From: Bilabrum cf. latius
Lineage: Eukaryota
NCBI GenBank assembly: GCA_965178125.1
Contig: OZ237764.1
Span: 186,001 to 250,000, forward strand
DNA: 64,000 nucleotides
Direction: 5' to 3'
Below are positions 870 through 63,000 of this stretch, piece after piece (the first letter of the stretch is position 1; each line of letters starts with the position of its first letter). The notes beneath the pieces are model-generated. The model searched no databases, was not told the origin of the DNA, and saw only the letters and a program-made list of their open reading frames with translations. A program made the position numbers and the translations under genes.

Positions 870-2063
870 TCACTCCACAGGCTCACCCCACGAACTATTG
901 TACGTCTCTGGTGTAAATCCGGCGAGCCCCCATTTCTCCTTCATGTCCTGCAACGTGGGCCCCCCCCCGTCTGCGGCACCAGACTTCTCCTCCTTTTCCC
1001 TCTCCTTCTCCTTGCCCCCTTCATCTGCAGCAGCGTCGTCGGTCGCCCGCATGCCAGCTGCCTGGCGACTATCCACGTCCTCTGCCCCCGCCCCCACGTA
1101 CCTGGGATCCACCTCGTCCCCCTTTGGCTGCCACCTCACGTCGCAGCTGATCCTCACCTTGTCTGTCAGATTGGCAGTGGACATGTGCAGCGTGCGCATC
1201 CCGAACACAATCACGTCTCCCGCCCTGTAGTCCCCTGCTACCCACTGGCACTGGCACTGGCCCGCATCACCATCCGGACCCCCCGACGATGGCGAGGAGG
1301 TTGCAACCGCCTCGATCTCGGCGGGGTCCTCAGTAAACCACCCAGTGCCCTGCATCCCCTCCCTCTCCTGGTCCATCGAGCCGTATGTCTCCCGCAGCAG
1401 ACTCAGCCCCGCGCTCCTGTGCGACCCCTTGCACATGGCTAGACCCCCCATTTCAAGGGGCGTGTCCCCCATGGGGATCCAGGTGGTCAGCAACCTCGGG
1501 GAGCCTCGACTCATGTACACGTGGTCCATGTGCGCTCCGGTGAAGCGGCGGCGGGGCACGCCGCGGAGCCACTTGTAGTCAAACGTGAGCAAGTCGTCCG
1601 GCTTTTCCCCCAGCACCGTGGCCACCGCAGCCCGCAGGTCCTCATGCTCCACGCAGGCGAGCACGTCGGGCCTGGCAGTCTGGACCCCTTCCATGAACGG
1701 AACACACCCAACGCCGCACCTCGCCTAGAGCTGAGCGTCCTCCCGGCCAAAACTGTCACCAAAATCAAGTACATCGCCCTTGACTTTAAATTCTTCCAAC
1801 ACCGCCGATCTTGCGCGCAAAACGGCTTCGCGAGGAATCACACCACGCAAGAAAACGAAACCGTCCTCGCCAAAACGCTCGCGGAGGCTAGCACCAGAAG
1901 CGTCTTCTTCGAGCAGCAATGAGCTGTCTGGAATCTGTCCGAGCTTCGAGGAGGGGAAAAGGACCGTTCGCTTGCCGAGCTAAATATGGCGTTTTTTCAC
2001 GACGGCGGATCCATCGGGCTCCGGCACACGCAGGTCGCGACTTTTGCCAACCGCCGCAGCCAT
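870..2063 (-). CDS. Phytanoyl-CoA dioxygenase (PhyH)-family Fe(II)/2-oxoglutarate dioxygenase, ~397 aa
   Basis: ATG 2063 (MAAAVGKSRDL) to TGA 870-872 in one frame with in-frame TAGs at 1980-1982 and 1725-1727. Motifs FGEDGFVFLRGV, TGAHMD (HxD), LLTTWIPMGD, GDVIVFGMRTLHMS (distal His), RISCDVRW. Confidence 0.85.
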
Positions 2064-2159
2064 ACGGGAAGATGCCTATCAAACAATGTAATCAGTGGCG
2101 TATGCTGATATTTTTCAGACTTTGACGCGTAGTTTGTTGCGGTCGCATTTCCACTCATC

Positions 2160-3451
2160 ACAGATGCTAGGAGCAGTCATTCTTGGCCTTTCTGGTCTAC
2201 AGGTGCCAACATGGCGCACGAGACCAGTCCGTCTTCCAGATGATCTTCAACACCAAGAACCGCAAGCAGCTGAAACGAACGTTCACCTCGTGGCTGTGCC
2301 CGTATATCCTACGGGACGCGACTGCACTGCTGAAGTCGAGCTCCAGCACGCACGCTGCCGGTATACTGCGCGAAGCAGAAACGATGCACCCGGTAGCGAC
2401 AGACGCCTGGGCAAAGTTTGACGAGGACTCTGTAGGCATGAAATACCTACAGAGCTGCATCGGTTTGGACAATTCCCGGATCCTCGGCCCTTCGGCCATG
2501 CCGGCGATAGCACGGAGCACCTGGCGAGGCCGAGACGGCCGCCTCATCCTACGATGGCTCACTGGGCGTTACCCTCGGGAAGGGACCATGCACCACAGAG
2601 GAGAACGCTCGGTACAGGCCGAGATGATGCGCGCGGAAGCCACGCACACGGACGTACCCTGGGCACCCACGGCAGTGGGGAGAGCACTATGGATGGAACA
2701 CGTCAAAACGGAGCAGGTGCTGACACAGGAACACCGAGGGGACGCAGACTCCTTGGAGCTCTCTATCGTCCAAGGCACCCTCGAACAACTCCAAGAACGG
2801 TGCCGACGTGCAATCCGACGCTTGTAGCAGAGGGCCAATGAGAGCTTCGGACGAGCCATTGAGGGGTTGTAGTCCTGCCAACTGTGCGTAGCTGAACAAC
2901 TCAGCTCGGGCAGCCCAACAGCCCGAGACCTTGCAATCCGAGCCCACCCGCTCGGACACATACTGAATCCCTCCGAGAACTAGTTCATCGGAGAGTGGAT
3001 GACAGGAACGCTGGGCCGTTGCGCCCTCAGCAAGGAGCTTCAGGTGCTAGAACGCATCTGGGCGAAGGGAACGGCAAGGCTAGCACGCTCCCGGATCTGG
3101 AGCAGGCAACAAGTCCTAGAGGCGGACTATATGGCGGTCTGGTGGCGAGAGGCTGAACGCCTCACGCCTCGCCAGGCCTTCCTCGCGCATGCTCCCTCAC
3201 TGCGGACGTTCGACTGGGTCTGACTCCCAGGAGATCTCAACGCGATGCGCTTAGGACACGGGTCCTAGGCATGTATCGGTCTTAACCAGACCAACTATTT
3301 CTTCAGAGGCCTTTTCAGGTCCTGACTGGCTCCGCCAACGCGGGTACAGCTGGGTCCCCTGTTAAGGTGCGCGTTACTTTGGTGGCAGTCCTCGGATTGT
3401 CTCTGGTATTGAATTGCGTGCGAAAACTCTATTTTCTCTCTCTCTCTCTCT
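2160..3451 (+). mobile_element. Probable 5'-truncated retroelement (non-LTR-like) fragment
   Basis: About 350 open codons (2183-3223, TGA) with no ATG at the 5' end of the frame, read through 3 TAGs. LILRWLTGRYP resembles the post-RT 'LRTGH'-type segment of LINE ORF2. Followed by ~210 nt UTR and a (CT)n tract at ~3436-3451. It sits inside a divergent gene pair whose spacing is far longer than the other pairs. No RT domain or target-site duplication seen; boundaries approximate. Confidence 0.4.
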
Positions 3452-10542: not shown

Positions 10543-13500
10543 ATGGTCACCGAGGGCCTGCAAGACTCTAGCAGCCTGCTCTCATCACAGGGCCCACTCG
10601 AGGGAAATCGCGAGCATGGATCCCAGTACAACTTGAAGAAGGAGTGGGTCCGAGCACGAACGGCTCATCGCGTTAGCGTGTCGTGCTGGCTGCTCTGGCG
10701 CAGCCTGAGTGCGACCGCCGCAATGTGACGTTGCTCTTGTCATCTGATTCTTGCGACCAACTGGCGCCACCCTTCATTCGGTGTTGTCGTCTGCAAATCA
10801 CGCCTGCAGGATGCCACCATAGGATTTCATGCAGCTTTCTGCTTGGGTTACTCCAATTCAATCAATAGTTTTTGTTGTTTTGGCAATCATTCAGACTCAG
10901 ATCGGTTTGCAAGGTGGCAACAGTGCTGGGCTACGCGTCTGTGGCACACGATGCGCACGTATGAGTGAATCAGAAGTAAACAGCATGCGAGTTGCCCCAG
11001 GCATGTACATAGGACTTTCTGTAGCTTGCTTTGGTTTGCTATGCTCGGCTACTACTAGTGACGTTAGGTCATTGTGCTGGACACTACTCGTGCCAGCCGT
11101 ATCGGTGAGCTGCTTTGCGGACTCCTCGGAGATTCACTGGACCGTGTGCACTTTCCACGACATAGATAATTCCTTTCATATACTCCGAACGATCTCTTGC
11201 AGATGGCTGCTGTATCCCTACTTCAGAACCCAGTCGCTGATTGTGTCGATGCCGGGTGCTTTATTGTACAGGAAGGCACGAAAGGCCCAGTCATTATGTC
11301 CACACAAATTTTCTTGATCGTAGTATCTGTTGCAAATCAGCAAGTTTGGCTCACATTCCACGCGGTCTGTCCGGGCAGGCTGCCTGCGATTGCGTTGATG
11401 GGGCTTGCATGGATCGGTTCCGCTGCCTTTGTGCTTGGGCCAACGATAATTACGGCTTTTCAAGACGGCAACACTGGCGTAACGGTGTGGGCTGTTGCTT
11501 TATGCGCAATAGCTATTGCGCTTGTCGCGGGGATTGCCTGCAGTCCAGTCTTGACGGTAGCCTCGAGCATTTTGGAAGCCGGTCTGCCAAAGGCAACTGC
11601 CCAGAGCAACAAGGAACGCCTCAGCGAAAAAGCATATGATTAGCTCCAATGCTTTGGCATCTCATGCTCGCGACGCTGGCTGACCGTGCTTCTCGTGCGG
11701 GGCCTAATGATCACAACTGTGCTGCTCGCAGCTTGTCTCCTGATTGCGTATGACCTGATTGCTGGGGCCTCTTCAGACCTGCTGCTGCGCTTCATCATAT
11801 ATGAGGATATTGTAGCGACAATTTACACTCTTACGAGTGTACTGCTGGTATCTTCGGCCATATCGCAACTGGTGCAGCAAGTGGCAAAAGCGAAGGATGA
11901 GGCGAACCGGTCCCGCATGCAGCACGTGCGGCAGTTCATCCGGTACGTCTTCCACGAGGCAAGAGTGCCTCTGCAAGCAGTTTCTCTTGGCGTGGAAGAG
12001 ATCGAAGACATACTTCGTGACATCCATAGGGAACACAGGGCGGCGCACCGAGGGTCACACGGGGGCCGCCAGCCGGTCAGCGGATCTACTGGTGAATCGA
12101 TGATCAGCTCGGGATCTATACCCGCAGGACCCCTGCTCTCACCTAACGTATCGATCGGAAAGAACATTAGAAAAGCATCTGGTGGGCCGACCTAGGTGGG
12201 CAGGTCACCAAGCGCCGCCAACCAGGGTGGCGGCGGCGGTGCTCTCGCCCGGATGGGCAACGAGGTCTCCGCCACCAGACCAGTGCGCCGGGCACTGGTG
12301 CCACTGGCCGCCGGAACCGAATAGGTGTCCTTGGCACGAGGTGGCAATATATCTTCGGACACATCCGGCTCCGATGGTACTGCCACGCACGGCACCGCAG
12401 CCTCCGCTTCCTTCGTGCTTCCCGTCGCGCACGGGTCCTCCGATGCAGCCGCAGCGAGATTGGGAGCTAGCGGGGCGGCTATTCCCGATCAATAGACCAC
12501 GGGACATCGAAGGAGCGGGGCTTAGCGGGAAAAGCAAGGCTAGACGCGTTGTTTGCCCAAGCACAGCGTCGCCGTGGCCAAGTCACACCTGCTGGACCTC
12601 ACGTCAGCGTGCTCTGCCATGTGGGACGGATGCACCGCCATGCAGTCCGTGTTCAACGACGTGCTAGACGCCCAGCGCATTTAGGATGGGCGACTGGCCC
12701 TGGTGGACAGGGACCTGGACCTCAGGCAGTTGCTGCGGAGCGCCAGGAGGATCTTTCGACCGGTGGCGCAGACTAAAGGCATCGCTTTGAGGGTTGGTCT
12801 CCTGCGGGACCCCAGGCTGGGGGAGGAGCATAGCTCAAAAGAGCTGACGTGCGACTCAGTGCGGCTATCGTAGGTGATCAACAATCTTATTTCGAATGCA
12901 ATGAAGTTCACGGAGCAAGGCGGGGTCACTGTCATGGCCAAGCTCACCGTGCAACGGGCGGAGCACCACACGGTCCATGATGGAGGAGGGGGGGATGCTC
13001 ACATGACTAGTCTAGACTTGATTCAGAGGAGATCATCGCAATCAAGGGCAGCCAAAACTAGAATGGCGTCGGCAAATTCCGACGGCAGTGCTGTCCGTAG
13101 GGCGGCATAGGACGTTGCGACGGCATCACTGCCGGCTGGTGCTGGACGGCCCAGCCCTACCCGCTCTGTCGCCAAGCCATCGAGTGGGAAGAACGCAGGC
13201 AGCGAGGCTGGCCGCAATTCGGCCAGAGTGGCTCCTAAGACTCACCTGCTGCCGTCCAGGTCAACCTCATCCATGGCTCACAGCCTGCCCAGGCCCTCTG
13301 TCAGGAACAGAGCGAAGACCGCTAACGTGCCTGCGGTCCGAGTGGATGTGCAGCCTGTGGCCCCTGCAGCGCCAGCAGCGGGTATCCTGCCGGAGTAGGT
13401 ATGGTTGTAGGTTGCTGTATCGGACACAGGATGCGGAATAGACACAAAGGATCAGGCGAAGCTTTTTCAGCCGTTCTAGCAGACGAGGCAAGGCCTCGTT

Positions 13501-14970
13501 TTCACCGGTGCATCGTCAGGTCTCGGCCTGTTCATCTCCAGAGGAATCGTGCGGCAGATGGGGGGCGATCTTAGTCTGGAGAGCCAGCCAGGCAAGGGGA
13601 GTGAGTTCCGCCTCAGCGTCCCGATACAGCTGCACGATCGTTCCAGTCCCTAGAGCTAGCAATCGTTCGACTCGTCTTCAGACACAAAGGACAGGGCAGA
13701 AGGACAAGACCACGCGACAGAAGGGTAGAACCGCGCTGCAGATCAAAAGAGATGCGACAACGGATTGCCAGAGGATTGCGGGGATGATTCGATTGCCATG
13801 GTGTACGAGTCGCTGACAGAGGACAAGCAGGAGAATAGCAAGGCGGCGCAGGTCGGTCCGGCGAGGCGCGCGTCCGTCGAGTCATCACGGAGCAGCTGGG
13901 ACAAGGCATGGATTGGCAGTCGCAGCGGGGCAGATGAATCGCTCGGGGGCAGGTCTGGGCTGTCGAGCATCAATGAAGACGGTTCGAGTCACCATCACGC
14001 CATAGAAGGCGAAGAAGCGGCGCACATCTTCCGTCTTAAAGCAGGGGTCTCCCGTGGCTTGGATAGTCCGAACAGCGGCAGCAATTCCCGCGATGCTAGT
14101 AGTAGTGGGGGCACGCCAGGGCACGCTGCGACAGAGGTGTGGGCGCGATCAAAAGGCGTTGTTCCTCCGAGCGCAGCCAGCAAGGGTTCCCTCGGCCGAG
14201 AGAAGCTGGCCAATGCCAAGATTGCCGCGAAGCAGCGGCAGCCGACCGGCCAAGAGAGTGACCCGCCAGAGGCGCGCACTCGGAAGCACAGGCACGTTAC
14301 AAAGAAACGCAAAAAGACGGGGACTTCGAGTGCGACAGCAGGTGCTGTGGGTGCCGGCGCGTCTGTCGCCCCAGCTTCGGGTGCTGTCAGGGATAGCAAC
14401 AGCTCTGGAGCTGCCCTTGGGGCTGGCAGTAGTGATGACGTCGGGGCTCCGGCTCCAAAAGGGGCCACCACTGCAGCGAAGCACGACGCCCCGACGCCCA
14501 TCATGCCTTCCAAAACAACTAGCAGAAGCAATGTGCCTTGCCTCGTGGTGGAAGACGTCCGGGTCAACCGCACGCTGCTGTGCCGAGCGCTCGCCAGGAA
14601 AGGGTTCGAACCCGTCGGCGCGGAGGACGGGCAGCAGGCTCTGGATCTGGCGCCGGCTGTGTTTGGGCCCTTTGAGCGAGAGGGGCAGGGCAGCAGCGGG
14701 GAGGGGCCGCATGAGCTGCTAGGACTGGTAGTGATGGATCGGTCCATGCCGATCATGGGTGGGATCGAGTGCACGAAGCGACTGAGGGACATGTTCGGGG
14801 AGAGGCTCGCTATCATTGGGCTCACGGGGGATGCCATGCAGGAGGACCTAGAGGAGTTCAGGTTAGCCGGGCTGGACGGTGTGATGTCAAAGCCTGCAGG
14901 GGCCAAGCAAATCAAGAAGATGTGGGACAGGTTGAGCAGCGGCGTAGCTGCCCAGCGCAGGCCAGTTTGA
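10543..14970 (+). CDS. Multi-pass membrane hybrid histidine kinase (HisKA, HATPase_c, receiver), ~1414 aa
   Basis: H-box FIRYVFHEARVPL, N-box RLS[TAG]VINNLISNAMKFT, G1 VSDTGCGI, F-box LFQPF[TAG]Q, G2 SSGLGLFISRGIVRQMGG, receiver LVVED...VVMDRSMPIMGG...IIGLTG...SKP. Several hydrophobic N-terminal segments. Introns 11105-11202 (good) and 10725-10809 (tentative, so the start is uncertain). About 15 in-frame TAGs; TGA stop. Confidence 0.9.
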
Positions 14971-15180: not shown

Positions 15181-16070
15181 TCACGAGTCGGCACCCTCAC
15201 GCCCTTCTTCAGACGGCGGCAGCTCCCCCGAGGCCTCCCTCTGCGTCCTCAGTTTCTCCATGCGCAGCTTCCTCTCCAGTGCCATCCGCTGGGCCCGCGT
15301 CAGTGGCTGTTCAACGGGCTGCGGCGCCCGGATCGACCGCAGGCCTCTCGTGGGATCCATGCGCTTGGTGTTTCCTTTCGCTACCACCACCCGGGTGCGC
15401 CGGCGCAGTGGCAGCCTCCCCGACATGCCCCGCCGGTCCTCAAGCACGGTCATGGAGGCAGAGGCGCGCGCCAGCTGAGAGCCCTTCTTATGACCCGCTC
15501 CTCCTCTACCTCGCCGCCGGCGCCCCTTGCCCGCCTAAACCTGCAGACCAAGGAGGGCGGCACTTGCTGAGCTGCTCAGCGAGTCGGCTGCCAGACTCCG
15601 CCCGCTTGTAGATGCTTCCTCTATGCTGCGGCTGGAAGGGTCCTGACCCCCGGCACCTGATGGCATCTCTAGGTGCTGATGCTGGCCATTGCCACCGAGA
15701 CCGGGCAGCACACCAGATCCCGCTGTGCTAGCACCCTGGAGATCTCCAGCAGACCCCCCCGCTGTGCTCCTGCTCCGCTTAAGTGCCGCTGCCCGCTCCG
15801 CAGGGTCCAGTCCCGCGTCCATCTCCACCTCCAGCTCGCTCTTGAGCCTCCCCCTGAAGGAGCCCTGCCTCTTCATCTCAGCGATGACTTCCTGAGGGTC
15901 GCGCTGGGGGCTTGAGGGAGAGGCAGAGGAAGCGCCCGTGGGCTCGGCGGTGTCCTTGGATCGCCGCGATGTCTTTGACGACCGCGAAGTTTTGCTGGCA
16001 GCAGATCGCTTGCTGCCCTTCGACCCAGCGCTGTCCAGCCGCTGATGCCTGGATCGCATAGGGGAGTGCC

Positions 16071-16117
<47 letters not shown>

Positions 16118-18923
16118 CGCATGGTGGGTGTGACTGCCCTGTCTACGACATCGGGCGACTTCGATCTCCTGGCCACACCCTCAAGAAACCCGCCCGCCGA
16201 ACTGACACGAAGTCGCATGGCATGGCCGACAGAGTGTAGCGAACGTTCGCCAAGTTCAGAGGGCTCGTCCATCTCGCTGTCCACCGCGGCATCCCCAAGC
16301 CCATCGGGCCGCCTGCCACGCATCGACAGCTGGTGCTCGAACCACCGAGGGCCCAGTCGATTCCTCTCTGCCGCATCGCGCGGGGTGTCCAGGCGACCCT
16401 CCGCCGCCCGTCGCAGTCCCATGGCAGAGATCGTCTCCCGGGCTCGCACCGATGCGTGCTGGCCCACCTTTGACCCCACCGTGGGGCCTGGGGTCCCCCG
16501 CCTGCCCATGGGACTCTTCGCGCCATAGCCCGACCGCTGCGCCCGCGTTGGTGTCGCCACTGGCGAGGGTCCATCGGTGCTGCTGGGGCCTCCCAGTCTC
16601 CCGACCTCACCGCCTGGATCTGCGATGCTGCCCTGGGGACTGGGTTCCATGCTGCCCTCTCGTGACATCTTGATCACCTTCGAGAGCACGCTCCGTATGG
16701 AGGCTCGCCTGGATGCTTTCTTCGCGGCACTATCAGTGCCTGCTCCTGCACCCCCAGTGTCGATGCTAAGCTTCTTCTTGCTCTCTAGCAACCGGTCGGC
16801 CATCGCTGCAGTGGCCGCCGCCGCTTTGTGCCTCTCTCGCTGCAGCACCTCCGCGCCGCTCCTGACGCTCTGCAGTGCCTGGAGTGTGCCACCCACACCC
16901 ACCCGCCGGCCCTTGGTCCTTCCCTCCCTCTCCATCTGCTTGAGCTCTCTTCGTGTGCGCTGCACCACCGCGCGAATGCCCGGGGCCGTTCCCCCCTCGC
17001 TCCTACCCGGAACAATGGTCGAGGCTGCCCTGAACCTGGACTGTGCCAGCGCGTCAAAGGTCGGGGCCAGCACGTTGTGAGTCTCCGTCGTGCTGCTCTG
17101 GGGCATGCCAGAGGCGAACGCCTTCATCTAAAGCAGGGGAAGGAACTCGTCCGTCTCGAGGAAATTGCGGGCTTCGGCCCGGGTGATGGCCAGCCCGCTG
17201 GCACCCACCTTCCCCGCGGGCCCTCTGGGGTTGCCCTCAAGCAGCCGCTCCCAGCCGCCTGTAACGGCCAGGTCCTCAACACCCAGCAGCGACTCACCCA
17301 GGTGCGTGGTAATGTCCATGCGAGCCCCGCTGCCGGAGCCATCACGGTCCAGTGCGTAGCTCTTTGCCGCTCTCCTCGCGGCAGCCTTGGATTCAGAGCC
17401 GTTTGAGCTGCTCTTCTTGCCCTCTCCACCACCGCTGGCCTCGGGCACGCCCCTGCCTTTGACCAGTGCATCCGAGTCCAGAGCGCCCGATACCCTCTTC
17501 CCGCGAGCGTATTCCTCTGCAATGTCTGCCATCGTGCTCGAAGCCACCACGGTGCTCTAATCCTCCAGCAGTGCCGCCTCCTCCCCCGGCCCGCTGTGCG
17601 CCCCCTTCATCTTGCGCCGAATCGCACCCACTGCCCTCTTCCGGCGTGGCCCAGCGATGGGCGGCAGGGCACGAAACACGCTGCGTGTCAGGTCGTATAC
17701 ATTGCTGGGGTCGGGCACGGGCGGAAGCGTCGCCATGAGGTCCTCCTCCTGTTCCTTGAGCTCTTCCTGGGGGACAGGCTGCAGATCATCCTCCTCGTCC
17801 TCTACTTCGTATGCATCTTGACCCTGTCCTCCCCCCCTGCTTGGCATCGTGGCCCTGCCCTCTGCCTGGGTCAGCCCCAGCGGGTCATCCGGCTCCAGTC
17901 CAACGTGACCCGGGGTGGGCTGTCCCTGGGGGCTCCAGAACATGGGCGTCACCCCAACGGGCGGGGTCCCGCTGGTGCCGCTGTCCATGCCCTTGCCTCT
18001 CGCGCCGCCAGCCAGGAGCTGCGGTGGATGAAACGTTCGCGCGGTTCGTTCAAGCTCCTCGAGCTCTGCTTCTCCTTCTCCTTCTAGATCGGAGGCACCC
18101 GGCGTGTCGCGGCCATCGCCGCCATCGTCCCCACTACTGTTATCGCTGTCCGAATTCACGGAACCTGTCCCCCGGTTGACCCCTTCGATGCCCCCTTCCA
18201 TCGACTGTATCACCGACAGGTTGCGCGCCCGGCCGACCATGTCTAATGGAAGGCTACCTCGCCTGCCCTGGCGTCTCTGCACCCGGGCACGTCCCCCTGC
18301 TCCCAATCCAGTGCCGGTACCAGCCACCCCGCCTAGCCTCTGCTCCAACTGCACAGCAGCCTACCGCTATAAGCGATTGGGCCGGAACCTAGACCTGTCG
18401 TCGGGACCAACGAGACCCAGGACCCCGCTCGTACTGGCACCGAGTTCACCCGCCCTCCATGGCGACCCCATCCATCGCTTTTGTTCGGCAGCAGCTGACC
18501 CCCCACCAGGGGACGATGCCGCCGACCGCGACAGCACCGCGACGCCCGCGACCGCCCCTGCCTCCGACATCGTCCGCACGTCCCCGCGGCTCAGCACTCC
18601 CGCACCTGTGCCCGCATCCGACCCAAGAATTGACCCCGGCCCGTCCGTAGATGGCCTCCACTGCTGGTCCGACTCGAGAACCTCGCCGCCCGGGTCCTCG
18701 GGCTTCCTCGGCAGGTGCGACCCGATCACGCGCCGGAGCTCCGGCGGCAGCGAAGACATCATTGCCGATGCCTCGTCCACTATTCCCAGCTCCTGCGCCC
18801 ACAGCCGCCCCTGCAGGCGGTCAAATCTATCGAGTCGATCCGAGTTGAGCCATCGAGGCTGGGAGCGCCGGTCCGGATCGATCGTTCGCTGGAACTTTGA
18901 CCGGCCCTGCCTGCCCAACGGCA

Positions 18924-18954
<31 letters not shown>

Positions 18955-20373: not shown

Positions 20374-20482
20374 ATTGGCCTCACCCACAATGCGAGAACT
20401 GGACTGGTTGTACCTGTCCGTTTGCTAGAGTATTTTGGCTCCGCATTACTCAATAAAAACTTCGCATTTTGGCACTACAAGC

Positions 20483-47395: not shown

Positions 47396-47515
47396 GGATG
47401 CCAACAGGTAATGTGCTGTCCGTTGCCGATCGGGGCCCACACGGTTCCGGTTTTCTAGGCGCCGGAGCGGTTCGGGTCGTCACGATTATACCCGAAAACC
47501 AGATCGACAATAGGT

Positions 47516-48649: not shown

Positions 48650-51600
48650 TTACAGCCCCATGTCATCCTCATCCTCCTCGTCAGTGGTGCGCCCAGATCC
48701 GAACTGAAACCCGCCAGCATGGCTGGACATCCGGCTGGACTCACGTACAAGCGCACCGGGACCTGTCAGGTCACCGTCCAGCCCAGGGCCGTGAAGGTCA
48801 CCGTGGCCATGGTCAGTCTTGGCCCCGCTGGCACCTGCATCAGCGTACATGGCGCCCCGCTGCAGGCTGCCCCGACGCCCATCCACTCCCATTTCCGCCG
48901 GCATGTGCATGGACCCGTGCATCAGCATTCGGCGAAGATCACCACCACCCCCCTGCGTATCTCTGTCCCCCGCCCGGAATGACTCTGCAGCCATGCTAGC
49001 CCCGAGTCCAAGTGCGAGACCACCGGTGTGCGACTGCGACTGCTGTGAGGGCGAGCGCGAGTGTGAACGGCCCGGGCTGTGAGTGTGAGGGCCGCTGCCG
49101 GAGCCACCCAGACCAATAGCCAGGTCATCATCTGCCGAAGAGAAGCCCATCCGCCCGCCATCGGCACCCCTGTCTCCACCCATTCGCATGGGAATGGCTT
49201 GCACAGCGTGCCTCCAATTCCCCGAGGCGCGGGCCAGGGAGGCAGCCGGGGTGCCGCCGTGGTACATGCTGCCGCTCATGTGACTTCCGCCTTCCGATTC
49301 CGAGTCGTTGCCCGTGGAGAACACATTGCGGGCCCTGCCAGGCCCCGCAGGCATGCCGTACGCCAGTGCGAGCTCGGGGCCCAGGTTCAGCGGCGCCCCA
49401 CCCATGCCATCGCTCTCGGCGCTGTGCGAGGGGGCGTGGGAATAGCCAGCGCCCGTGTCTGCCTGGTCAGGCGCACCTCCATCCCTGGTTGATCCAGCAC
49501 CGGGTGCAGCCTTGCTGCCTCCTTCGCCCTAGCCTTTGCCCAGCCTAGATTTGGTCCTGCCACGTGGCGCGCCTGCTCCGGCCCTGCCTTGCCCTCCTGT
49601 CTGCCCCCCTGGTTGCACAGGGGACTCGCGCTGCAGCCGTCCCGTGCTGTCTCGGGGCGGCACCCGCACGATCCTGGGCGGTGACTTGAACTGGCCTCCC
49701 ACTCCAGGAGATACGGGAGGCTGGTGGCTGCTGGACACCGAATCCAGGCCATTCGAGTAGAGCGAGTCGGAGCGTCCCCCCATCACTGGATCGCCTCTGC
49801 CCCCATTTGCGTACAGATGAGCAGCGTCTCCAGCACCCGCTTGTCCACCGGTGGTGTCAAGGTCGTCGTGGCCAAAGCTTCGCAGCGTGTGGCGTCGGCT
49901 CGCCGATCGGTCCCCACCCGTGGCGCCACCACCCAATCTACTCTGGCTATGCATCATCCTCTGCCGCTAGGAATCAGACACTCGGCTAGATTGACGCGTG
50001 TACAAGCCACGGCTCGAGGGCGACGGCAATTGGCTGCTGCCACCCCTCTAGAGTGCCGCGGCACTGCCTGCCCTCGAGCCTGGGTTGCCCCCACCCCCCA
50101 GCACGAGTCCTGAGCTCGATTGCGCATGCAGAGACACCTGCCGCTCCTGTCGCAGCTGCTTTCCCTAGACCAATTCATTCCGGTAGGCATGATCTGCGAG
50201 TAACGCCTTCCGCGCGCCTCCTGCCTCTGCTATCTCGCTCGGAGACAGCTCCTCATCAGAGAGCGCATCGCCCCCTGGCAGCACGCAACATGGAAAGAGC
50301 CTGCTTGCGATGAACCTCGCCTCCGCCCTAATCTAGGAGTTCACTGTGATCACCATCGCGAAGATGAGGGCCCCTTGCAGCGGGGCGAGCAGCCCACATA
50401 TGTAGCCGAACGGCACCAGCTTGACCGGTAAGTCCTCTGTCAGTACACCCCTGTCGGTCACGGGCTTGTTTCTATGCGGACTAGGGTCCACGACGAGAGA
50501 GGCGATCCGGAGCGAGATGGGCCCAAGGACGGTCAGAAGGTAGGCTCCTGGATACACGGCCATGGCTAGCAGCCGAGCAGGACAGGCGCAGTGGCAGCAC
50601 GACGGTTCTTTTGGAGTGGTGGTGACAGGGCGGGCGGCTGCACGGGCCTGCTGTAGCGAGGGCAGTGCAGCCGGTCCGGTGCCCCCCTGCCAGCGACTGT
50701 CGTCCCATTGGTCACGCGATCTGACGGTGGAAGTGTGCGAGGCACTTTTCTATCGCTTGTCCGGCAGTCGGTTGCCCGTTGGAGCGGTCCCGATCCCGGT
50801 GCCGCCTCCTCCGAGTCCCTGGTCCTGGTCTGGCAATGGCAGCTGCGCGAGCCTCGCCTGCCTGCGGACCGCCAGTCTGCCGCTCTAGTGCAGCACCATT
50901 CCGAATACCACCGCGATGTACAGAAACGCCAGCGCACGAGGGATGTATAGGATGAGTATCGAGTTCGCGTGACCGAGCTCCTCATCGTACCAGCACCAAG
51001 AGGTTTGGTATACCTGCGGCGAGGTGGAGGGCGAGGGGGGGGGGGGGGACCGAGAGAGAGGTCCAACACACTGTTAGGATCGTTGAGGCATGATAACAGG
51101 ATATTGACTGTGCCCTTGGCAAGTGCTTGCGTTCGCGCGTCCAATATTCTCACCGTGTCGGCCTGAATGCAATGCAACAAGATGCACACCGCGATCCCAG
51201 GGACCCACGCAACGTGATAGTAGTAGTAGCGATACTGGGTGAACCTGCGAGGCCAAACGTATGCACATGCTGCCAAGTAGCGGGGGTACAGCCACCCAAA
51301 TCTAATATGCAAGCTCTTGCTGCATCATTGTTCAATGGTGTCCTCCTCACCTGCCGAAGAACTCTTTCTTATAGAAGTAGGCCCACCACAACAATTCGGT
51401 TGCGAGTATAACAGACCATGCACCTGAGCAAATAGGAGCAAATGCCAGCAACCGCGCCTGCCAGATGCAAGCGTCTGAGCTTGGCCCATTCCCAGCAACA
51501 CCAAAACTAAGCGACCACGATATACCAACCAGCATGTCGCTAAACGTGAGAAACGCAAGAAGAACAGTAAAACTGAACTTCAAACTTTCAATCTTTTGCG

Positions 51601-57105: not shown

Positions 57106-57203
57106 GACCCGCAGGACCACCGAAAGTACATATTTTCAATCCATTGGCAAATGTACTCGTAATTAAGCTGAATTTAATCAGAATCGTGCTGGCCGCATTT
57201 CGT

Positions 57204-59882
57204 ATGGCCGAAGAGCATGAGAGGCTTTCAAGATCAAATGTATTCAGTATTATGGACAAATTCTACGCAAAGATGGGGTAGGCTGCTTGGGAGCTGGATC
57301 GAGTTCCCAGCTATGTCACCACAAACGCCTTTCTCGCAGATACCTATGCCTCGACTATAGCGGCTTTCTGCAACGATCTGCTTCTACAGTATGTCAAGCA
57401 ACCTGTAAAGGAACATGCTGACTTTCATGTCGATGTGCTAGACATTGGTGCTGGCTCTGGGGCTTTGTCTATCGGCGTATACCGTGCACTCCGGCGCCGT
57501 GCTGATACAGGCCCCCTTGTTGCTGCCGGTCGGATCAGAATAATCTTGCTCGACTACAGCGTATCTGTGATCAAAGGACTCATGTAGAAGTAGGAATTAA
57601 TGTGCCTGGCACGGAAGGGTAGGCTTGATTTCGCGATATTTAATTGTCACGTCGGCGAGCAACTGCAACTGCAGGTGTCCAAGGAGACTCTGACCAGCAA
57701 GACAGCACCAAATCGGCACGGCGTACTGATCTGTCAATATTTGTTTGATAGCCTCAGGAGCGACGCGTTCATGTTTGCAGGTGGTAGTGTGTATGAAGGG
57801 CTGGTGCGATCCGTAGCTGCCTCCGAGGAGAGGCTCGAGGAGGATGGGGCTGACAGGCTGCACTTGGAATGGAAATGGAGCGAAGTAGAAGATGGCTCTG
57901 ACTCATGCAGTGATTATCCCGATCCTACAGATTCTAGTGTTCCAAGTCTATCTGAATACTACCGACCGTGTCGATCTGCGCCACAAGCTTGTGCGGGCGC
58001 GTAGCCACAGAAGCAGCAGGAAGAATGCGGCGCAGCTGCAGGCGCAACATTTGGCTCAACTGTAAGTTTAGCGAAATCAGATGCTGATTTATTCAATGGC
58101 CTCCTGCGTTACTACCAGCGGCTCTTTTCTGAAATGCACGGCGTAGAAGAGGACAGCGAGGATGAAGGCAGAGATGAAGCGAGCGCATGTTATGCTGATG
58201 GGTCCCTCCTCGCGGGACAGGATAGCAAGCATGGTGGCATCGGGGCGAGTGACGAGTCTCGCTAGGGCTGCGATGGCGAGGCAGCTGCAGGGCGAGGTCA
58301 GCGCCTGGGGCGGGCTGACTGTGGCAGCACCTCGGCGCAGACCGATGGCGAGGCAGACCCCGGCAGTGGCAGCGAGGTGGACCTAGTGTCGGTGCAGAGT
58401 GCTCGGCTACTGCTACCCATTGGCAGCATCCGGTTGATCCGATCATTGCGGGCCCTGTTTCCTGGCGGCATGCTGCTGCTTTGCACTGACAAGGGCCATG
58501 CGGACCCCGCGTGCTTCGCTGGACAGCCCGACCCTGAGGCAGCGAGGCACGGTAGCGTGTCATTTATGGTTAATTTCCATGCTCTGCAGCTAGCTGTGTC
58601 TTCCATGGAGGGAGCCTCGTGGCATTCAAACTCAGAGCACAGCTCGACTAAGCTGTTCGCCGCTGCCTTCCGACAAGTAGCAACGGAGAGCAGTCAACCT
58701 ACTAGTAGCTCGGCAGATCCCGAAGGCGGGACAGGCACACCTGAGTCTGAGTCTGAGTCCGATAGTGGCGAAGATGATCACGATGGCTCCATCGCGTCGG
58801 ACTCAGACTCAGACGACGGGCTGGGCTGCATGGATTTGTCACCGGGGCTAGACCTAGACCTAGGCGTTGCGCAGGGGAGGGGTTTCATGGACCAAGGGAG
58901 GAGGCGCATCGCAAGCACCATACGCGCTTTTGAAGAGGGTCTGTAGGCTCAGAGGAAGCGGTACAGGGGAATGTGGCCGCAGGCATGTACCTCGATCGAG
59001 GGCATGTGCAGGGCAGGAGGGGCGGACACGTACATGCAGCTCACCAACCGGCTGGTGCCCGGCGGCTGGTATGACCAGGAGAGCGACTACGACGACAAAG
59101 CAAATGACGACAAATATAAAGCGGCAGTGGCATCACATGCAAGTACGCGCGAAGGTGGGTGTGCCGGCAAGCCCGAATAGCTTGGATCCAGCACGGAAGC
59201 ACAAGTGACCGCATCAGCCGGTGCCGGTGCAGCATCGCCACGGGGCATCGGCAGCGCCACTGGCGCGCATCAAGACCAACTCGACGACCCTAGTCTCAGG
59301 CAGATGCTGCCACAGTGCAGTGCACCAATCGGTCTTCCTGATGCATGCGCGATCCTGCGGTATTCGCGGTTCGACCCTGACGTGCTTGCAAAGCTGCGGC
59401 CCGTCATCGAAGAGCAGGCGGCGAGTGCGTCGGAACTGGAGCGGCGGGACATGAGCTGGTGCGCCAGGGAGGTGATCCGTGCTCGCTTTGATCGTGGCGT
59501 TCACTACGACCTCGAGTACGAACTGGCCGTGGTGCTTGATGCCTGCGGGGAGCGCGGCAGTGCGCTGCAGCTGCTCCGGAAGAGCTGGGCTCGGGGTCAG
59601 AGGCTGGCAGAGGCTGGCTCATAGGCTCCCAGATCTGGTCTGATGCATGTAGCACGGCGAGCTGCGATTGCAGCAAGGGGCCTGGGCTTGGAGCTGGAGG
59701 CCAAGCGCTGGGACAGGCTCGCGAACCCAGTTGCACACCGTAATGGTCAGGGCGCACCAGCAGGGCAAGAAGCTGCAGCAGAGGGCACACCCTTGGCCTT
59801 GCCGAAGCAAACTGGTCAGCAGCGAGTAGGTGGCATGCATCATAAGTTTGGGAAGATAGTTCTGGATATTGATGAGCTTTGA
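57204..59882 (+). CDS. Class I SAM-dependent methyltransferase (MidA-like) with TPR-like C-terminus, ~892 aa
   Basis: FYAKMG[TAG]AAW...VPSYVTTNAFLA, motif I VLDIGAGSG, ILLDY, GRLDFAIFN, YLFDSL, CTDKG...RHGSVSFMVNFHAL, C-terminal YDLEYELAVVL...ALQLLRKS. Single frame, 8 TAGs, TGA stop. Confidence 0.8.
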
Positions 59883-60084
59883 CCCTGCCTTCCGACCCAA
59901 GTGTTGTGAAGCTCCGATCGAACGGTGAATGCCTCGCAGAGCGGATTGGACGAGCACGCAGCGAGCTCTCTTCAGCATTCATCCTTGAGAAGACCTAACG
60001 CGATAGTTTGAGAAATATTGCTTTGCTCCAAAGCACAAAGTATAACACATTTTGGAGCGTAACGCAGTGAAGCTGAGTGTAGGC

Positions 60085-63000
60085 ATGGACAGCAGCGAAA
60101 CCAAGTCAGACCTTTCAACAAGCCAATCCCCTGGCTCAGGCAGACAGCAATACACCGGTCCAACACCTCCAAAACCGCCGGGTATGGACGTTAAGAAGGA
60201 GCAAGAGGCTGCGCCAAGAAGAGCTCGGCGTTCGCGGCTCGGAACAAAGTCTAAACAGACACGGGAAGAAGCGACGGAACCAGCAGGCGACAGAGCAAGT
60301 GACAAGACAAAAGATGAAACCGCATAGCAACAAACATTACAAACCCTACCTCTACGACCGACAATGAAGCCCTCGAAAGGACCCGGGGCAAGCACACAGG
60401 ACGTGCCCAAGCCGCCCAAAAGGCCACCAACTCGGGCTGCTGGCGAGTCCGGGTCGGGCGCACAGGAGCTGCCCAAGCCGCCCAAAAGGCCACCAACTCG
60501 GGCTTCTAGCAGGCCAAAACCGGGCGCACAGGAGCTGCCCAAGCCGCCCAAAAGGCCACCAACTCGGGCTTCTGGCGAGTCCGGGTCGGGCGCACAGGAG
60601 CTGCCCAAGCCGCCCGTGAGGCCACCAACTCGGGCTTCTGGCGAGTCCGGGTCGGGCGCACAGGAGCTGCCCAAGCCGCCCAAAAGGCCACCAACTCGGG
60701 CTTCTAGCAGGCCAAAACCGGGCGCACAGGAGCTGCCCAAGCCGCCCAAAAGGCCACCAACTCGGGCTTCTAGCAGGCCAAAACCGGGCGCACAGGAGCT
60801 GCCCAAGCCGCCCAAAAGGCCACCAACTTGGGCTTCTGGCGAGTCCGGGTCGGGCGCACAGGACGTGCCCAAGCCGCTCAAGAGGCCAGCCAAGAAGCCC
60901 TCCAGTGAGGCAGGGGCAGGCGCACAGGACGTGCCCAAGCCGCTCAAGAGGCCAGCCAAGAAGCCCTCCAGTGAGGCAGGGGCAGGCGCACAGGACGTGC
61001 CCAAGCCGCTCAAGAGGCCAGCCAAGAAGCCCTCCAGTGAGGCAGGGGCAGGCGCACAGGACGTGCCCAAGCCGCTCAAGAGGCCAGCCAAGAAGCCCTC
61101 CAGTGAGGCAGGGGCAGGCGCACAGGACGTGCCCAAGCCGCTCAAGAGGCCAGCCAAGAAGCCCTCCAGTGAGGCAGGGGCAGGCGCACAGGACGTGCCC
61201 AAGCCGCTCAAGAGGCCAGCCAAGAAGCCCTCCAGTGAGGCAGGGGCAGGCGCACAGGACGTGCCCAAGCCGCTCAAGAGGCCAGCCAAGAAGCCCTCCA
61301 GTGAGGCAGGGGCAGGCGCACAGGACGTGCCCAAGCCGCTCAAGAGGCCAGCCAAGAAGCCCTCCAGTGAGGCAGGGGCAGGCGCACAGGACGTGCCCAA
61401 GCCGCTCAAGAGGCCAGCCAAGAAGCCCTCCAGTGAGGCAGGGGCAGGCGCACAGGACGTGCCCAAGCCGCTCAAGAGGCCAGCCAAGAAGCCCTCCAGT
61501 GAGGCAGGGGCAGGCGCACAGGACGTGCCCAAGCCGCTCAAGAGGCCAGCCAAGAAGCCCTCCAGTGAGGCAGGGGCAGGCGCACAGGACGTGCCCAAGC
61601 CGCTCAAGAGGCCAGCCAAGAAGCCCTCCAGTGAGGCAGGGGCAGGCGCACAGGACGTGCCCAAGCCGCTCAAGAGGCCAGCCAAGAAGCCCTCCAGTGA
61701 GGCAGGGGCAGGCGCACAGGACGTGCCCAAGCCGCTCAAGAGGCCAGCCAAGAAGCCCTCCAGTGAGGCAGGGGCAGGCGCACAGGACGTGCCCAAGCCG
61801 CTCAAGAGGCCAGCCAAGAAGCCCTCCAGTGAGGCAGGGGCAGGCGCACAGGACGTGCCCAAGCCGCTCAAGAGGCCAGCCAAGAAGCCCTCCAGTGAGG
61901 CAGGGGCAGGCGCACAGGACGTGCCCAAGCCGCTCGAGAGGCCAGCCAAGAAGCCCTCCAGTGAGGCAGGGGCAGGCGCACAGGACGTGCCCAAGCCGCT
62001 CAAGAGGCCAGCCAAGAAGCCCTCCAGTGAGGCAGGGGCAGGCGCACAGGACGTGCCCAAGCCGCTCGAGAGACCAGCCAAGAAGCCCTCCAGTGAGGCA
62101 GGGGCAGGCGCACAGGACGTGCCCAAGCCGCCCAAGAGGCCAGCCAAGAAGCCCTCCAGTGAGGCAGGGGCAGGCGCACAGGACGTGCCCAAGCCGCTCA
62201 AGAGGCCAGCCAAGAAGCCCTCCAGTGAGGCAGGGGCAGGCGCACAGGACGTGCCCAAGCCGCTCGAGAGACCAGCCAAGAAGCCCTCCAGTGAGGCAGG
62301 GGCAGGCGCACAGGACGTGCCCAAGCCGCCCAAGAGGCCAGCCAAGAAGCCCTCCAGTGAGGCAGGGGCAGGCGCACAGGACGTGCCCAAGCCGCTCAAG
62401 AGGCCAGCCAAGAAGCTACCCATTCGTGCCTCTAGTGAGGCAGGGATGGTTGCATTGGACGGTGGAACTCCGTTAGAATACCGTCAGGGCTCCAATGGTA
62501 CTTGCAGTCAGGCAGGAGCTGATCTGCAAGGCGGGGCAGGTGCATCGAGGGCCAAGGAGACAGCCCACCGGCGTATCGGCATCGGATCATTGCGATTGGA
62601 GTCTAGCCTCGGGATTGGTTTGGGCGCGTCAATGCCAGCCCAGAGGCGCATGAAATCACCGTCGTGCGAGAAGGAGTTGTGCGTAGCGCTGTCAACGGCA
62701 GCAGCTGTGCACAGGCTCTCTGGTGCTCAGACGAGCACGTGCTCTGCCGTTATGCCAGGTCCATCAATTGTGCCTGCACCTGACAGGCGCATCGTGGACT
62801 TGCACCCATTCGAGGACAGCTCCATTCCTGTGGGTTATGCGATGGCCCAAGATCGAGATGATTCCGCGATGCAGGAGATTGAGGCCGAGGCGCAACGCAG
62901 ACATGCGCTACGAATGGAAGAATTGCTGGCAGCGCAGGTTCGGGAAGAGGAGCGACTTCGGGAGCTGCAGGATCTCGTTGCTGCTGCTAGACGTCAGGCC

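What the first reader, a model, noticed from the sequence alone, without database searches (positions are those of the whole stretch)
870..60327. Non-standard nuclear genetic code: TAG is a sense codon for glutamine
Seen: in almost every gene the standard-code fragments share one frame and are separated only by TAG (roughly 110-120 by hand count), including tandem TAG-TAG at 43439-43444 (-). TAG sits at highly conserved Gln positions: SNF2 LRAY[TAG 38014]KE (consensus LRxYQ), GLGKTV[TAG 38104] (GLGKTxQ), LLFS[TAG 39514]M (IFSQ), and histidine kinase RLS[TAG 12871]VINNLISNA (RLxQVLxNLxxNA). Established: this matches NCBI table 15 and is rare in nuclear genomes (reported in the fornicate Iotanema spirale and a few ciliates). 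Inference: the GC-rich sequence with 80-240 nt introns does not look like a ciliate, so this may be an independent, possibly undescribed reassignment in another protist lineage. A heterotrophic stramenopile is only my guess.
Basis: partly seen in the sequence, partly recalled or inferred. Interest (0 to 1): 0.97.

Follow-up and report, generated by a model that had tools for sequence, protein, structure and literature searches.

The report
TAG codes glutamine in a Cafeteria relative
This stretch of nuclear DNA comes from a protist related to the marine flagellate Cafeteria that reads the stop codon TAG as glutamine, a rare change of the genetic code that I could not find reported for this branch of life.

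Summary
If TAG is read as sense, the window's fragments merge into ORFs of 2440, 2277, 2165 and 1754 aa; reading TAA as sense changes nothing. Fifteen gene models carry 114 in-frame TAG. Three independent lines say glutamine. (1) Profile columns from distant homologues: Q +16.6 nats against K +3.1 over 17 columns, with Q in 120 of 120 Mot1 homologues at three TAG sites. (2) Two syntenic metagenome contigs of a related species (75-83% nt identity) also carry in-frame TAG; TAG partners are Gln codons in 15 of 39 sites, and in 7 of 8 within well-conserved segments. (3) A relative's protein fragment has Q at two window TAG sites. Spliced contigs from two further studies are identical to the DNA at 29 of the 30 TAG sites in three genes, which excludes assembly error and complete editing. 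TAA and TGA remain stops. The code is therefore UAG-only to Gln (NCBI table 15 type). The best named relatives are Cafeteria roenbergensis and other stramenopiles. Six literature searches found no nuclear reassignment reported in stramenopiles. The tRNA and eRF1 basis could not be tested.

The parts
33538..40035 (+). Intronless Mot1/BTAF1-type SNF2 ATPase ORF, 2165 codons, 20 in-frame TAG, ends in TGA
   Evidence: Pfam SNF2-rel_dom 5.7e-60 and Helicase_C 1e-19. TAG columns: Q in 120/120 homologues at 38014, 38932 and 39514, Q in 100/120 at 38104, Q in 90/112 at 33934. One contig of run X5 spans 33574-40086 with 0 differences.
11170..14970 (+). Hybrid histidine kinase with receiver domain, 1266 codons, 15 in-frame TAG, ends in TGA
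   Evidence: Pfam HATPase_c 1.3e-24 and Response_reg 8.5e-12. The N-box TAG at 12871 lies opposite Q in 3/3 PDB chains and in a profile column with Q 0.53. The relative's fragment P0372 has Q at 12682 and 12871.
25552..28987 (+). PPEF-like phosphatase (CAP-Gly, Metallophos, EF hands), 4 exons (25552-25719, 25956-26233, 26387-26886, 27049-28987), 939 aa from the first Met, 3 in-frame TAG (26405, 27704, 28868), ends in TGA
   Evidence: Spliced contigs in runs X5 and X8. Introns begin GTAAGC, GTGAGC and GTGAGG and each ends in CAG. One frame is open across the joined exons. TAG 28868 lies inside the last EF-hand loop.
20908..23769 (+). ClC chloride channel with CBS domain, 953 codons, 5 in-frame TAG, ends in TGA
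   Evidence: Pfam Voltage_CLC 7.2e-65. Best named homologue is Cafeteria roenbergensis at 48% identity.
29144..32530 (-). ORF of 1128 codons, 7 in-frame TAG, ends CGC TAG TGA; one further upstream exon beyond an intron at 32491-32640
   Evidence: stop context. The orthologue in L002 ends CGC CAA TAA at the same place. A minus-strand intron joint 32490>32641 is seen in X5 and X8.
40157..47479 (-). Giant low-complexity protein with an EF-hand pair, 2440 codons, 15 in-frame TAG including the tandem TAG-TAG at 43439-43444, ends in TAA
3620..10453 (+). Low-complexity ORF, 2277 codons, 9 in-frame TAG, ends in TGA
   Evidence: No Pfam search of this ORF was completed: it was in the oversize request and was not resent.
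15181..20445 (-). ORF of 1754 codons, 7 in-frame TAG, ends in TGA
   Evidence: no Pfam family.
23924..25684 (-). ORF of 586 codons, 3 in-frame TAG at 15, 25 and 44 codons before the TGA stop
   Evidence: The orthologue in L001 is 54% identical over 313 residues.
870..2078 (-). PhyH-type dioxygenase ORF, 402 codons, 3 in-frame TAG, ends in TGA
   Evidence: Pfam PhyH 2.2e-13.
48650..51073 (-). ORF of 807 codons, 7 in-frame TAG, ends in TAA
51869..56161 (-). ORF of 1430 codons with a long coding tandem repeat, 7 in-frame TAG, ends in TGA
57108..59882 (+). ORF of 924 codons, 8 in-frame TAG, ends in TGA
   Evidence: (no Pfam family).
2126..3223 (+). ORF of 365 codons, 4 in-frame TAG; coding status unsupported by any family

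Best explanation
The window is nuclear DNA of a GC-rich (about 62%) stramenopile protist related to the bicosoecid Cafeteria. In it, UAG is an ordinary sense codon for glutamine, and UGA (mostly) and UAA end translation. Shown: in-frame TAG lies in genes that are transcribed and spliced. TAG sits at positions where distant homologues have invariant Gln. TAG interchanges with CAG and CAA between this organism and a related species that shares the code. TAG makes up 112 of 755 Gln codons (15%) in 14 ORFs. Inferred from how other UAG-to-Gln lineages are described, and not tested here: a tRNA-Gln with anticodon CUA, one base change away from CUG, reads UAG, and eRF1 has lost efficient recognition of UAG while keeping UAA and UGA. 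Also inferred: strong GC bias made TGA the usual terminator (12 of 14 here), so TAG was rarely needed as a stop and could be captured at low cost after the lineage split from Cafeteria.
For: ORF merging is specific to TAG and far beyond simulation. Profile columns: in the Mot1 alignment Q fills 120/120 homologues at three TAG sites, 100/120 at a fourth and 90/112 at a fifth. Summed log-odds from profile HMMs built without the query, over 17 TAG columns with posterior of 8 or more: Q +16.6 nats, next K +3.1. Related species: contigs L001 and L002 are syntenic with window 24852-34823 at 75-83% nt identity. In 3267 aligned codon pairs the relative has 24 in-frame TAG, 0 TAA and 0 TGA. TAG partners are Gln in 15 of 39 sites (next H, R, S and E, 3 each). 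The maximum-likelihood residue is Q (logL -93.6 against E -125.3). In segments of 50% identity or more, Q is the partner in 7 of 8. In ungapped DNA alignments the 10 TAG sites split as 6 with CAG, 2 with CAA, 1 TAG/TAG and 1 CCC. Fragment P0372 (92% identical) has Q at window TAG sites 12682 and 12871. The TAG just before the stop of gene 29144..32530(-) aligns with CAA in the relative, whose gene then ends in TAA. Transcripts: runs X5 and X8, from two studies other than the probable source, hold contigs that skip four GT..AG introns. X5 contigs cover 29 of the 30 TAG sites of three genes with 0 differences, and the tables of other letters and of indels are empty. TAA is not sense: there are 0 internal TAA in 17157 window codons and in 2790 codons of the relative, where CAA:CAG is 174:469 and 30:67.
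Against: No tRNA gene lies in the window or in L001-L003, and no eRF1 gene was seen among the window's gene models. No genome is held, so the molecular basis is untested. One conserved column disagrees: TAG 12682 lies opposite E in 3/3 PDB kinases and in a profile column with E 0.39, although the close relative has Q there. In the global MAFFT alignment three Mot1 TAGs (37636, 37708, 37717) fall opposite conserved Leu. That stretch lies outside every HMM-aligned domain of the query, so I treat it as misaligned, but this is a judgement. 24 of the 39 TAG partners in the relative are not Gln, mostly in segments of 32-43% identity. All laid runs are contigs, which drop rare variants, so partial editing is not excluded. 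The tool itself labels X5 'RNA? (probably DNA)'; I read it as RNA from the spliced contigs and from depth that differs by gene (3 to 107), against a flat 17.7 in X1. There is no peptide evidence. Taxonomy rests on best hits for two proteins and one single-gene tree.
Confidence: 0.92

Rival explanations
1. Ambiguous, context-dependent code: UAG is read as Gln inside genes but still ends translation near mRNA 3' ends, as described for Condylostoma, karyorelict ciliates and Blastocrithidia.
For: Contig ends suggest short 3' UTRs: the Mot1 stop is at 40035 and the contig ends at 40086; the PPEF-like stop is at 28987 and the contigs end at 28993 and 29041. Short UTRs accompany ambiguous codes in the literature (abstracts in the listing). 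My ORFs were bounded by TAA and TGA, so a TAG terminator could not show up by construction. Gene 29144..32530(-) ends TAG TGA.
Against: All 14 ORFs end at TGA or TAA. TAG is not depleted near the ends: it lies 1, 15, 25, 39, 44, 51 and 53 codons before stops. The TAG 39 codons before the PPEF-like stop sits inside an EF-hand loop that continues after it. The TAG next to the stop aligns with CAA in the relative. Mot1 continues for 78 residues after its last TAG, through the Helicase_C domain.
Confidence: 0.04
2. Both UAA and UAG code for glutamine (NCBI table 6 type, as in ulvophytes, Hexamita and many ciliates), and TAA is only rare because the genome is GC-rich.
For: TAA is the rarest stop triplet overall, with 310 occurrences on both strands against 937 TAG. 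UAA and UAG usually change together (PMC11687900, Discussion passages).
Against: Reading TAA as sense lengthens essentially no ORF. There are 0 internal TAA against 112 TAG in 17157 codons, although CAA is 37% as frequent as CAG, and 0 internal against 23 TAG in 2790 codons of the less GC-rich relative. TAA ends two window ORFs. It also ends the relative's orthologue exactly where the window has TGA.
Confidence: 0.03
3. Artefact or non-coding reading: pseudogenes, assembly or consensus errors, or C-to-U / U-to-C RNA editing at these sites; or TAG stands for another residue such as Glu, Lys or Leu.
For: One TAG lies opposite a conserved Glu in kinases. Three lie opposite Leu in a forced global alignment.
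Against: The same letters are found in contigs of 4 runs from 4 studies, two of them spliced. A second species conserves the genes and uses TAG at other Gln sites. Log-odds favour Q by more than 13 nats over any other residue and by 31.7 nats over E in the species comparison. The Leu columns lie outside the HMM-aligned regions.
Confidence: 0.01

Closest known systems
UAG-only to Gln nuclear codes (NCBI table 15 type): the fornicate Iotanema spirale, the ciliate Protocruzia tuzeti and two phyllopharyngean ciliate lineages (PMC11687900, Discussion passages seen; PMC5304391, listing and start of abstract only)
   Same: UAG is read as glutamine while UAA and UGA stay stops, so the meanings of UAA and UAG are uncoupled.
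   Different: The lineage differs: a stramenopile close to Cafeteria, not a ciliate or a metamonad. The genome is GC-rich (0.57-0.67 per 4 kb) and has spliceosomal introns of 150-236 nt. A tRNA-Gln(CUA) could not be looked for here.
UAR to Gln codes (NCBI table 6 type): ulvophycean green algae, Hexamita, Streblomastix, Amoeboaphelidium and many ciliates (PMC11687900)
   Same: A former stop codon is read as glutamine, presumably by a tRNA-Gln derivative.
   Different: TAA is not sense here. It ends genes and is absent inside them.
TAG to Gln recoded bacteriophages ('genetic code 15'; PMC9523058, listing and start of abstract only)
   Same: The codon has the same meaning.
   Different: The window is eukaryotic nuclear DNA: it has spliceosomal introns, Mot1/BTAF1, ClC and PPEF-like genes, and stramenopile homologues.
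Cafeteria roenbergensis (bicosoecid stramenopile; genome paper PMC6972860, listing only)
   Same: It is the closest named relative: 48% identity in ClC and 55% in the PPEF-like protein, and the window is sister to its clade in the PPEF-like tree with 100/100 support. From recall, not from a call, its genome is also GC-rich.
   Different: Its public proteins for these genes are full length (995 and 1055 aa) under what I assume are standard-code gene calls. I infer that it has no in-frame TAG, but I did not check its DNA.

Membership tests
UAG-only to Gln nuclear code (table 15 type) | In-frame UAG inside genuine, expressed protein-coding genes | tested here: met
   114 in-frame TAG in 15 gene models; Pfam domains span TAG sites; spliced contigs are identical to the DNA at 29 of 30 TAG sites of three genes.
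UAG-only to Gln nuclear code (table 15 type) | UAG corresponds to glutamine | tested here: met
   Profile log-odds Q +16.6 against K +3.1 over 17 columns. Q in 120/120 homologues at three sites. In the species comparison Q is 15 of 39 partners and 7 of 8 in conserved segments, with ML residue Q. The relative's fragment has Q at two sites.
UAG-only to Gln nuclear code (table 15 type) | UAA remains a stop and is not sense | tested here: met
   0 internal TAA in 17157 and 2790 codons. TAA ends 2 of 14 window ORFs and ends the relative's orthologue where the window has TGA. The sample is one 64 kb window and 12.9 kb of a relative.
UAG-only to Gln nuclear code (table 15 type) | UGA remains a stop | tested here: met
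   12 of 14 ORFs end in TGA. There is no internal TGA in 3267 aligned codons of the relative. The C-termini of the PPEF-like and 29144..32530 proteins coincide with those of the relative.
UAG-only to Gln nuclear code (table 15 type) | A cognate tRNA-Gln with anticodon CUA | not testable with these tools
   No tRNA in the window or in L001-L003, no genome held, and the genome-contig scan found nothing.
UAG-only to Gln nuclear code (table 15 type) | eRF1 altered so that UAG is no longer recognised | not testable with these tools
   No eRF1 gene was seen among the window's gene models, and there is no access to the rest of the genome.
UAR to Gln code (table 6 type) | UAA is also read as Gln | tested here: not met
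   as above.
Ambiguous stop/sense codes (Condylostoma or Blastocrithidia type) | The reassigned codon also ends translation near 3' ends and is depleted just upstream of true stops | tested here: not met
   TAG lies 1, 15, 25 and 39 codons before stops, and the terminal TAG aligns with CAA in the relative. Only 14 genes were examined, and contigs cannot show mRNA ends.
Stramenopiles, Cafeteria lineage (Bicosoecida) | Phylogenetic placement with named members | tested here: met
   The named hits to the PPEF-like protein are nearly all stramenopiles (the exceptions include a dinoflagellate and a trypanosomatid). The top named ClC hit is Cafeteria. In the ML tree of 38 PPEF-like proteins the window is sister, with 100/100 support, to Cafeteria plus two unnamed sequences. 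This is a single gene, with no 18S and no phylogenomics.

The most novel reading that the evidence does not exclude
This is an independent and so far undescribed origin of the UAG-only to glutamine code. It would be the first nuclear stop-codon reassignment in stramenopiles. It arose in a GC-rich genome, not under the AT pressure usually invoked for codon capture, and after the split from the cultivable, standard-code Cafeteria. At least two species share it (the window's organism and the one behind L001/L002), which gives a close recoded / non-recoded pair for working out how UAA and UAG become uncoupled.
Probability: 0.6. Interest if true: 0.85.

Novelty: new member of a known kind. Interest (0 to 1): 0.8.

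Why it matters
Nuclear stop-codon reassignments are rare outside ciliates, and cases where UAG changes while UAA does not are rarer still. By PMC11687900 they comprise Iotanema, Protocruzia, two phyllopharyngean lineages, a rhizarian (Leu) and Scotinosphaera (Ser). A case in a stramenopile next to Cafeteria, a cultivable genus with sequenced genomes, would add an independent origin in another major group. It would also offer a close comparison of a recoded organism with a non-recoded one for tRNA-Gln and eRF1 changes. The genome is GC-rich and ends genes almost always with TGA, so it bears on whether disuse of a stop codon, and not AT pressure as such, opens the way to capture.

There is a practical side too. 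Public standard-code gene calls for this organism and its relatives are cut at TAG: P0374 ends exactly at one. Its proteome is therefore fragmented in databases and needs re-annotation with table 15. The organism also turns up in runs filed under other organism labels.

Tried and rejected

No tRNA and no Rfam family was found in the window or the loci.

A scan of genome contigs with the PPEF-like exon found no relative: 43 stretches matched a pattern and none was confirmed.

The look-up of sequencing runs listed no holder on record as RNA. I inferred RNA origin for X5 and X8 only from spliced contigs.

For gene 29144..32530(-), the X5 and X8 contigs stop at 29181 and 29169, before the TGA at 29144-29146. 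Contigs cannot show ends, so I draw nothing from this.

A PDB search with the PhyH-type protein covered none of its TAG columns. The three PPEF-like TAG columns and the single aligned ClC column are variable and carry no information.

In the global MAFFT alignment, Mot1 TAGs at 37636, 37708 and 37717 fall opposite conserved Leu. I rejected this because a profile HMM aligns no domain of the query between residues 495 and 1478.

I considered a green-alga origin after the first Mot1 hits (Coccomyxa, Botryococcus and Closterium at 36-37%). I dropped it when ClC and the PPEF-like protein pointed to stramenopiles at 48-56%.

The identity of the EukProt record labelled GECG01 (54% identical in the PPEF-like protein) could not be confirmed from the literature library. 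I recall it may be a halophilic bicosoecid transcriptome, but I do not rely on that.

Literature searches for a stramenopile or bicosoecid nuclear code change found nothing relevant: 5 papers; 6; 13; 12; 11; a 2024 stramenopile review, whose only hit is a mitochondrial reference.

Full report
**What is in the window.** The 64 kb window is GC-rich (0.57-0.67 per 4 kb) and has no tRNA gene and no Rfam match. Under the standard code the longest stop-to-stop ORF is 1224 aa, and only one ORF reaches 1000 aa. If TAG alone is read as sense, eight ORFs reach 1000 aa (2440, 2277, 2165, 1754, 1430, 1318, 1266, 1128). Reading TAA as sense changes essentially nothing. Reading TGA as sense lengthens many frames on both strands, as expected for the commonest stop triplet in GC-rich DNA, but yields nothing above 1324 aa. 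In 50 second-order Markov simulations of the window, 1 of 50 produced any TAG-sense ORF of 1000 aa or more; the real window has seven closed ones.

**The genes.** The merged ORFs are real genes:
- a Mot1/BTAF1-type SNF2 ATPase (33538-40035)
- a hybrid histidine kinase (11170-14970)
- a ClC channel (20908-23769)
- a PPEF-like phosphatase with EF hands (25552-28987, four exons)
- a PhyH-type dioxygenase (870-2078)
- several long low-complexity proteins

I count 111 in-frame TAG in 14 ORFs plus 3 in the spliced PPEF-like gene. Across 17157 codons TAG occurs at 6.5 per 1000 in frame and 8.5 per 1000 off frame, so it is not avoided. TAG supplies 112 of 755 Gln-type codons (CAG 469, CAA 174).

**Not an error, and not edited away.** The Mot1 stretch is held by 8 listed runs from 4 studies (names are coded and I did not decode them). 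I laid 19.2 kb (20900-40100) against four runs.
- X1 covers the whole stretch in one contig with no difference and is probably the source.
- X5 and X8 come from two other studies. They hold contigs that skip four segments with GT..AG ends (25717>25954, 26233>26387 and 26885>27048 on the plus strand; 32490>32641 on the minus strand). X1 keeps these segments.
- Depth in X5 and X8 differs strongly by gene (for example 106 for the PPEF-like gene against 13 for Mot1 in X5), while it is flat at 17.7 in X1. Contig ends fall close to gene ends.

I therefore read X5 and X8 as transcript-derived, although the tool labels X5 'RNA? (probably DNA)'. X5 contigs cover all 20 Mot1 TAG sites in one 6513-nt contig (33574-40086), all 3 PPEF-like sites, and 6 of the 7 sites in gene 29144..32530, all with zero other letters. 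The tables of differences and indels are empty. Contigs drop rare variants, so partial editing is not excluded. Complete editing to CAG and consensus error are excluded.

**Which residue: distant homologues.** I aligned the Mot1 ORF, with X at TAG, to 120 homologues. The homologues have Q in 120 of 120 at 38014, 38932 and 39514, in 100 of 120 at 38104, and in 90 of 112 at 33934. The other columns are variable or gapped.

Three TAGs (37636, 37708, 37717) fall opposite conserved Leu in the global alignment. A profile HMM built from the homologues aligns no domain of the query between residues 495 and 1478, so I treat those columns as forced.

I then scored TAG columns in the manner of Codetta. 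Profile HMMs were built from homologues only, for Mot1, ClC, the PPEF-like protein and the kinase (homologues). For TAG columns with posterior of 8 or more, I summed the log of emission over background. Over 17 columns Q scores +16.6 nats, followed by K +3.1, H +1.5, R +1.4 and E +1.3.

One conserved column disagrees. TAG 12682 in the kinase dimerisation helix lies opposite E in 3 of 3 PDB chains and in a column with E 0.39.

**Which residue: a related species.** A metagenome scan with the last PPEF-like exon returned two contigs from one metagenome, L001 (4327 nt) and L002 (8529 nt). They are syntenic with window 24852-34823 at 75-83% nucleotide identity and have a lower GC content of 0.55. 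They represent a related species.

Read with TAG as sense, L002 holds ORFs of 1157 aa (7 TAG) and 1124 aa (open-ended, 13 TAG).
- In ungapped DNA alignments (1135 codons) the ten sites with TAG in either species pair as CAG 6, CAA 2, TAG 1 and CCC 1.
- In protein-guided alignments (3267 codon pairs) the relative has 24 in-frame TAG, 0 TAA and 0 TGA. The partners of TAG are Gln at 15 of 39 sites, then H, R, S and E at 3 each, with the remaining 12 spread over L, G, V, P, A, K, D, N and T.
- Using the substitution pattern of these same alignments, Q is the maximum-likelihood meaning (logL -93.6 against -125.3 for E).
- In segments of 50% identity or more, the partners are Q in 7 of 8 and H in 1. 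The non-Gln partners come mostly from the fast-evolving Mot1 N-terminal half and gene 29144..32530 (32-43% identity).

The library search with the kinase also returned short fragments from standard-code gene calls. P0374 is 100% identical to the window and ends exactly before TAG 12193. P0372 is 92% identical and has Q at both 12682 and 12871. The site that lies opposite E in distant kinases is therefore Gln in this lineage.

**Which codons stop.** Of the 14 ORFs, 12 end in TGA and 2 in TAA. There is no internal TAA in 17157 window codons or in 2790 codons of the relative. Yet CAA is 37% and 45% as frequent as CAG in the two species, and TAG occurs 112 and 23 times.

Gene 29144..32530(-) ends CGC-TAG-TGA, and its orthologue in L002 ends CGC-CAA-TAA at the same position. 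This shows that a TAG directly before the stop is Gln and that TAA ends translation in the relative.

TAG is not depleted near gene ends: it lies 1, 15, 25, 39, 44, 51 and 53 codons before stops. The TAG at 28868 lies inside an EF-hand loop that continues after it. I therefore see no sign of a context-dependent stop/sense code, within the limits of 14 genes and of contigs that cannot show mRNA ends.

The code is UAG = Gln with UAA and UGA as stops, the NCBI table 15 type, not table 6.

**Who it is.** Mot1 has no close relative in the protein collection (best about 37% identity).
- The best named ClC hit is Cafeteria roenbergensis (48%).
- For the PPEF-like exon, the top hits (52-56%) are unnamed environmental proteins, a EukProt record, and a protein filed under Symbiodinium sp. 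KB8. That last protein sits in one 90% cluster with four Cafeteria roenbergensis accessions.
- Further down, the named hits are mostly oomycetes, brown algae and Tribonema at 34-41%.
- In a maximum-likelihood tree of 38 PPEF-like proteins (LG+C20+F+G4 by PMSF) the window is sister, with 100/100 support, to a clade of Cafeteria plus two unnamed sequences. A further sister group holds the EukProt record.

This is one gene and two best-hit lists, not a phylogenomic placement. The full-length public Cafeteria proteins suggest that Cafeteria itself has no in-frame TAG in these genes. That is an inference; I did not see its DNA.

**How it most likely works.**

Shown:
- UAG lies inside spliced, conserved mRNAs.
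- It corresponds to Gln.
- It drifts to and from CAG and CAA like a synonymous codon.
- Translation ends at UGA or UAA.

Inferred from what is described for other UAG or UAR to Gln lineages (PMC11687900, Discussion passages):
- A tRNA-Gln with anticodon CUA reads UAG. It is one substitution away from CUG and does not read UAA, which allows UAG to change alone.
- An eRF1 variant no longer recognises UAG.
- The evolutionary route was disuse of TAG as a terminator in a genome that ends genes with TGA, followed by capture.

None of these inferred steps could be tested. No tRNA or eRF1 gene was found in the window or the loci, no genome is held, and the genome-contig scan found nothing.

**Comparison with what is known, and novelty.** PMC11687900 (December 2024; I saw Discussion passages only) lists these cases:
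- UAG-only to Gln: Iotanema spirale, Protocruzia tuzeti and two phyllopharyngean ciliate lineages
- UAG to Leu: a rhizarian
- UAG to Ser: Scotinosphaera
- UAR to Gln: ulvophytes, Hexamita, Streblomastix and Amoeboaphelidium

Searches of the held library brought up no nuclear reassignment in a stramenopile: stramenopile, bicosoecid, Codetta with eukaryotes, flagellate and Cafeteria, and bicosoecid genera. A 2024 review of stramenopiles cites only mitochondrial code work. The library lacks most subscription journals, and supplements were closed. The runs are dated 2025, so the depositors may already know of the code.

I rate this a new member of a known kind. The code is the same as table 15. 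The lineage is new, the genome is unusually GC-rich, and at least two species share the change.

Noticed in passing
window 11857-12195; proteins P0374, P0372, P0371, P0375: Public standard-code gene calls for this organism and its relatives are fragments cut at TAG. P0374 (162 aa) is 100% identical to the kinase and ends at the residue before TAG 12193. The proteome of this lineage in databases is therefore chopped and needs re-annotation with table 15.
   Followed up: partly
window 29144-29181, minus strand: The transcript-type contigs of X5 and X8 for gene 29144..32530 stop at 29181 and 29169. That is 23-35 nt before the TGA at 29144-29146 and also before the final TAG at 29147. Contigs cannot show true ends, so this is unexplained. 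Poly(A)-anchored reads would tell where this mRNA ends.
   Followed up: no
window 51869-54350 (-) and 60330-62480 (+): Two long, nearly perfect coding tandem-repeat arrays. One consists of Ala/Gly/Asp-rich units inside the 1430-codon ORF. The other has units of about 22 residues rich in Lys/Pro/Ala inside the ORF that runs off the window's end. All six frames are open across them.
   Followed up: no
window 33538-36900 against L002 5190-8519: The N-terminal HEAT half of Mot1 is only about 32% identical in protein between the window and the related species, and gene 29144..32530 is 43% identical. The neighbouring PPEF-like phosphatase is 85-94% identical. Rates are very uneven between adjacent genes. 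GC content also differs (0.62 against 0.55).
   Followed up: partly
window 28987-29146 and 40035-40159: Convergent genes end very close together: 156 nt and 121 nt between the stop codons. Contig ends suggest 3' UTRs of only about 6-54 nt, which indicates a compact genome.
   Followed up: no
proteins P0243 and P0151: Two proteins filed in NCBI under Symbiodinium sp. KB8 are among the best hits. P0243 shares a 90% cluster with Cafeteria roenbergensis proteins, which suggests bicosoecid contamination in that dinoflagellate assembly.
   Followed up: partly
window 23312-23329 and 29965-29982: A short contig in X1, X5 and X8 touches both places by about 18 nt, with 24 other letters in between (table 5c). 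It is probably a shared low-complexity motif from another locus, not a rearrangement.
   Followed up: no
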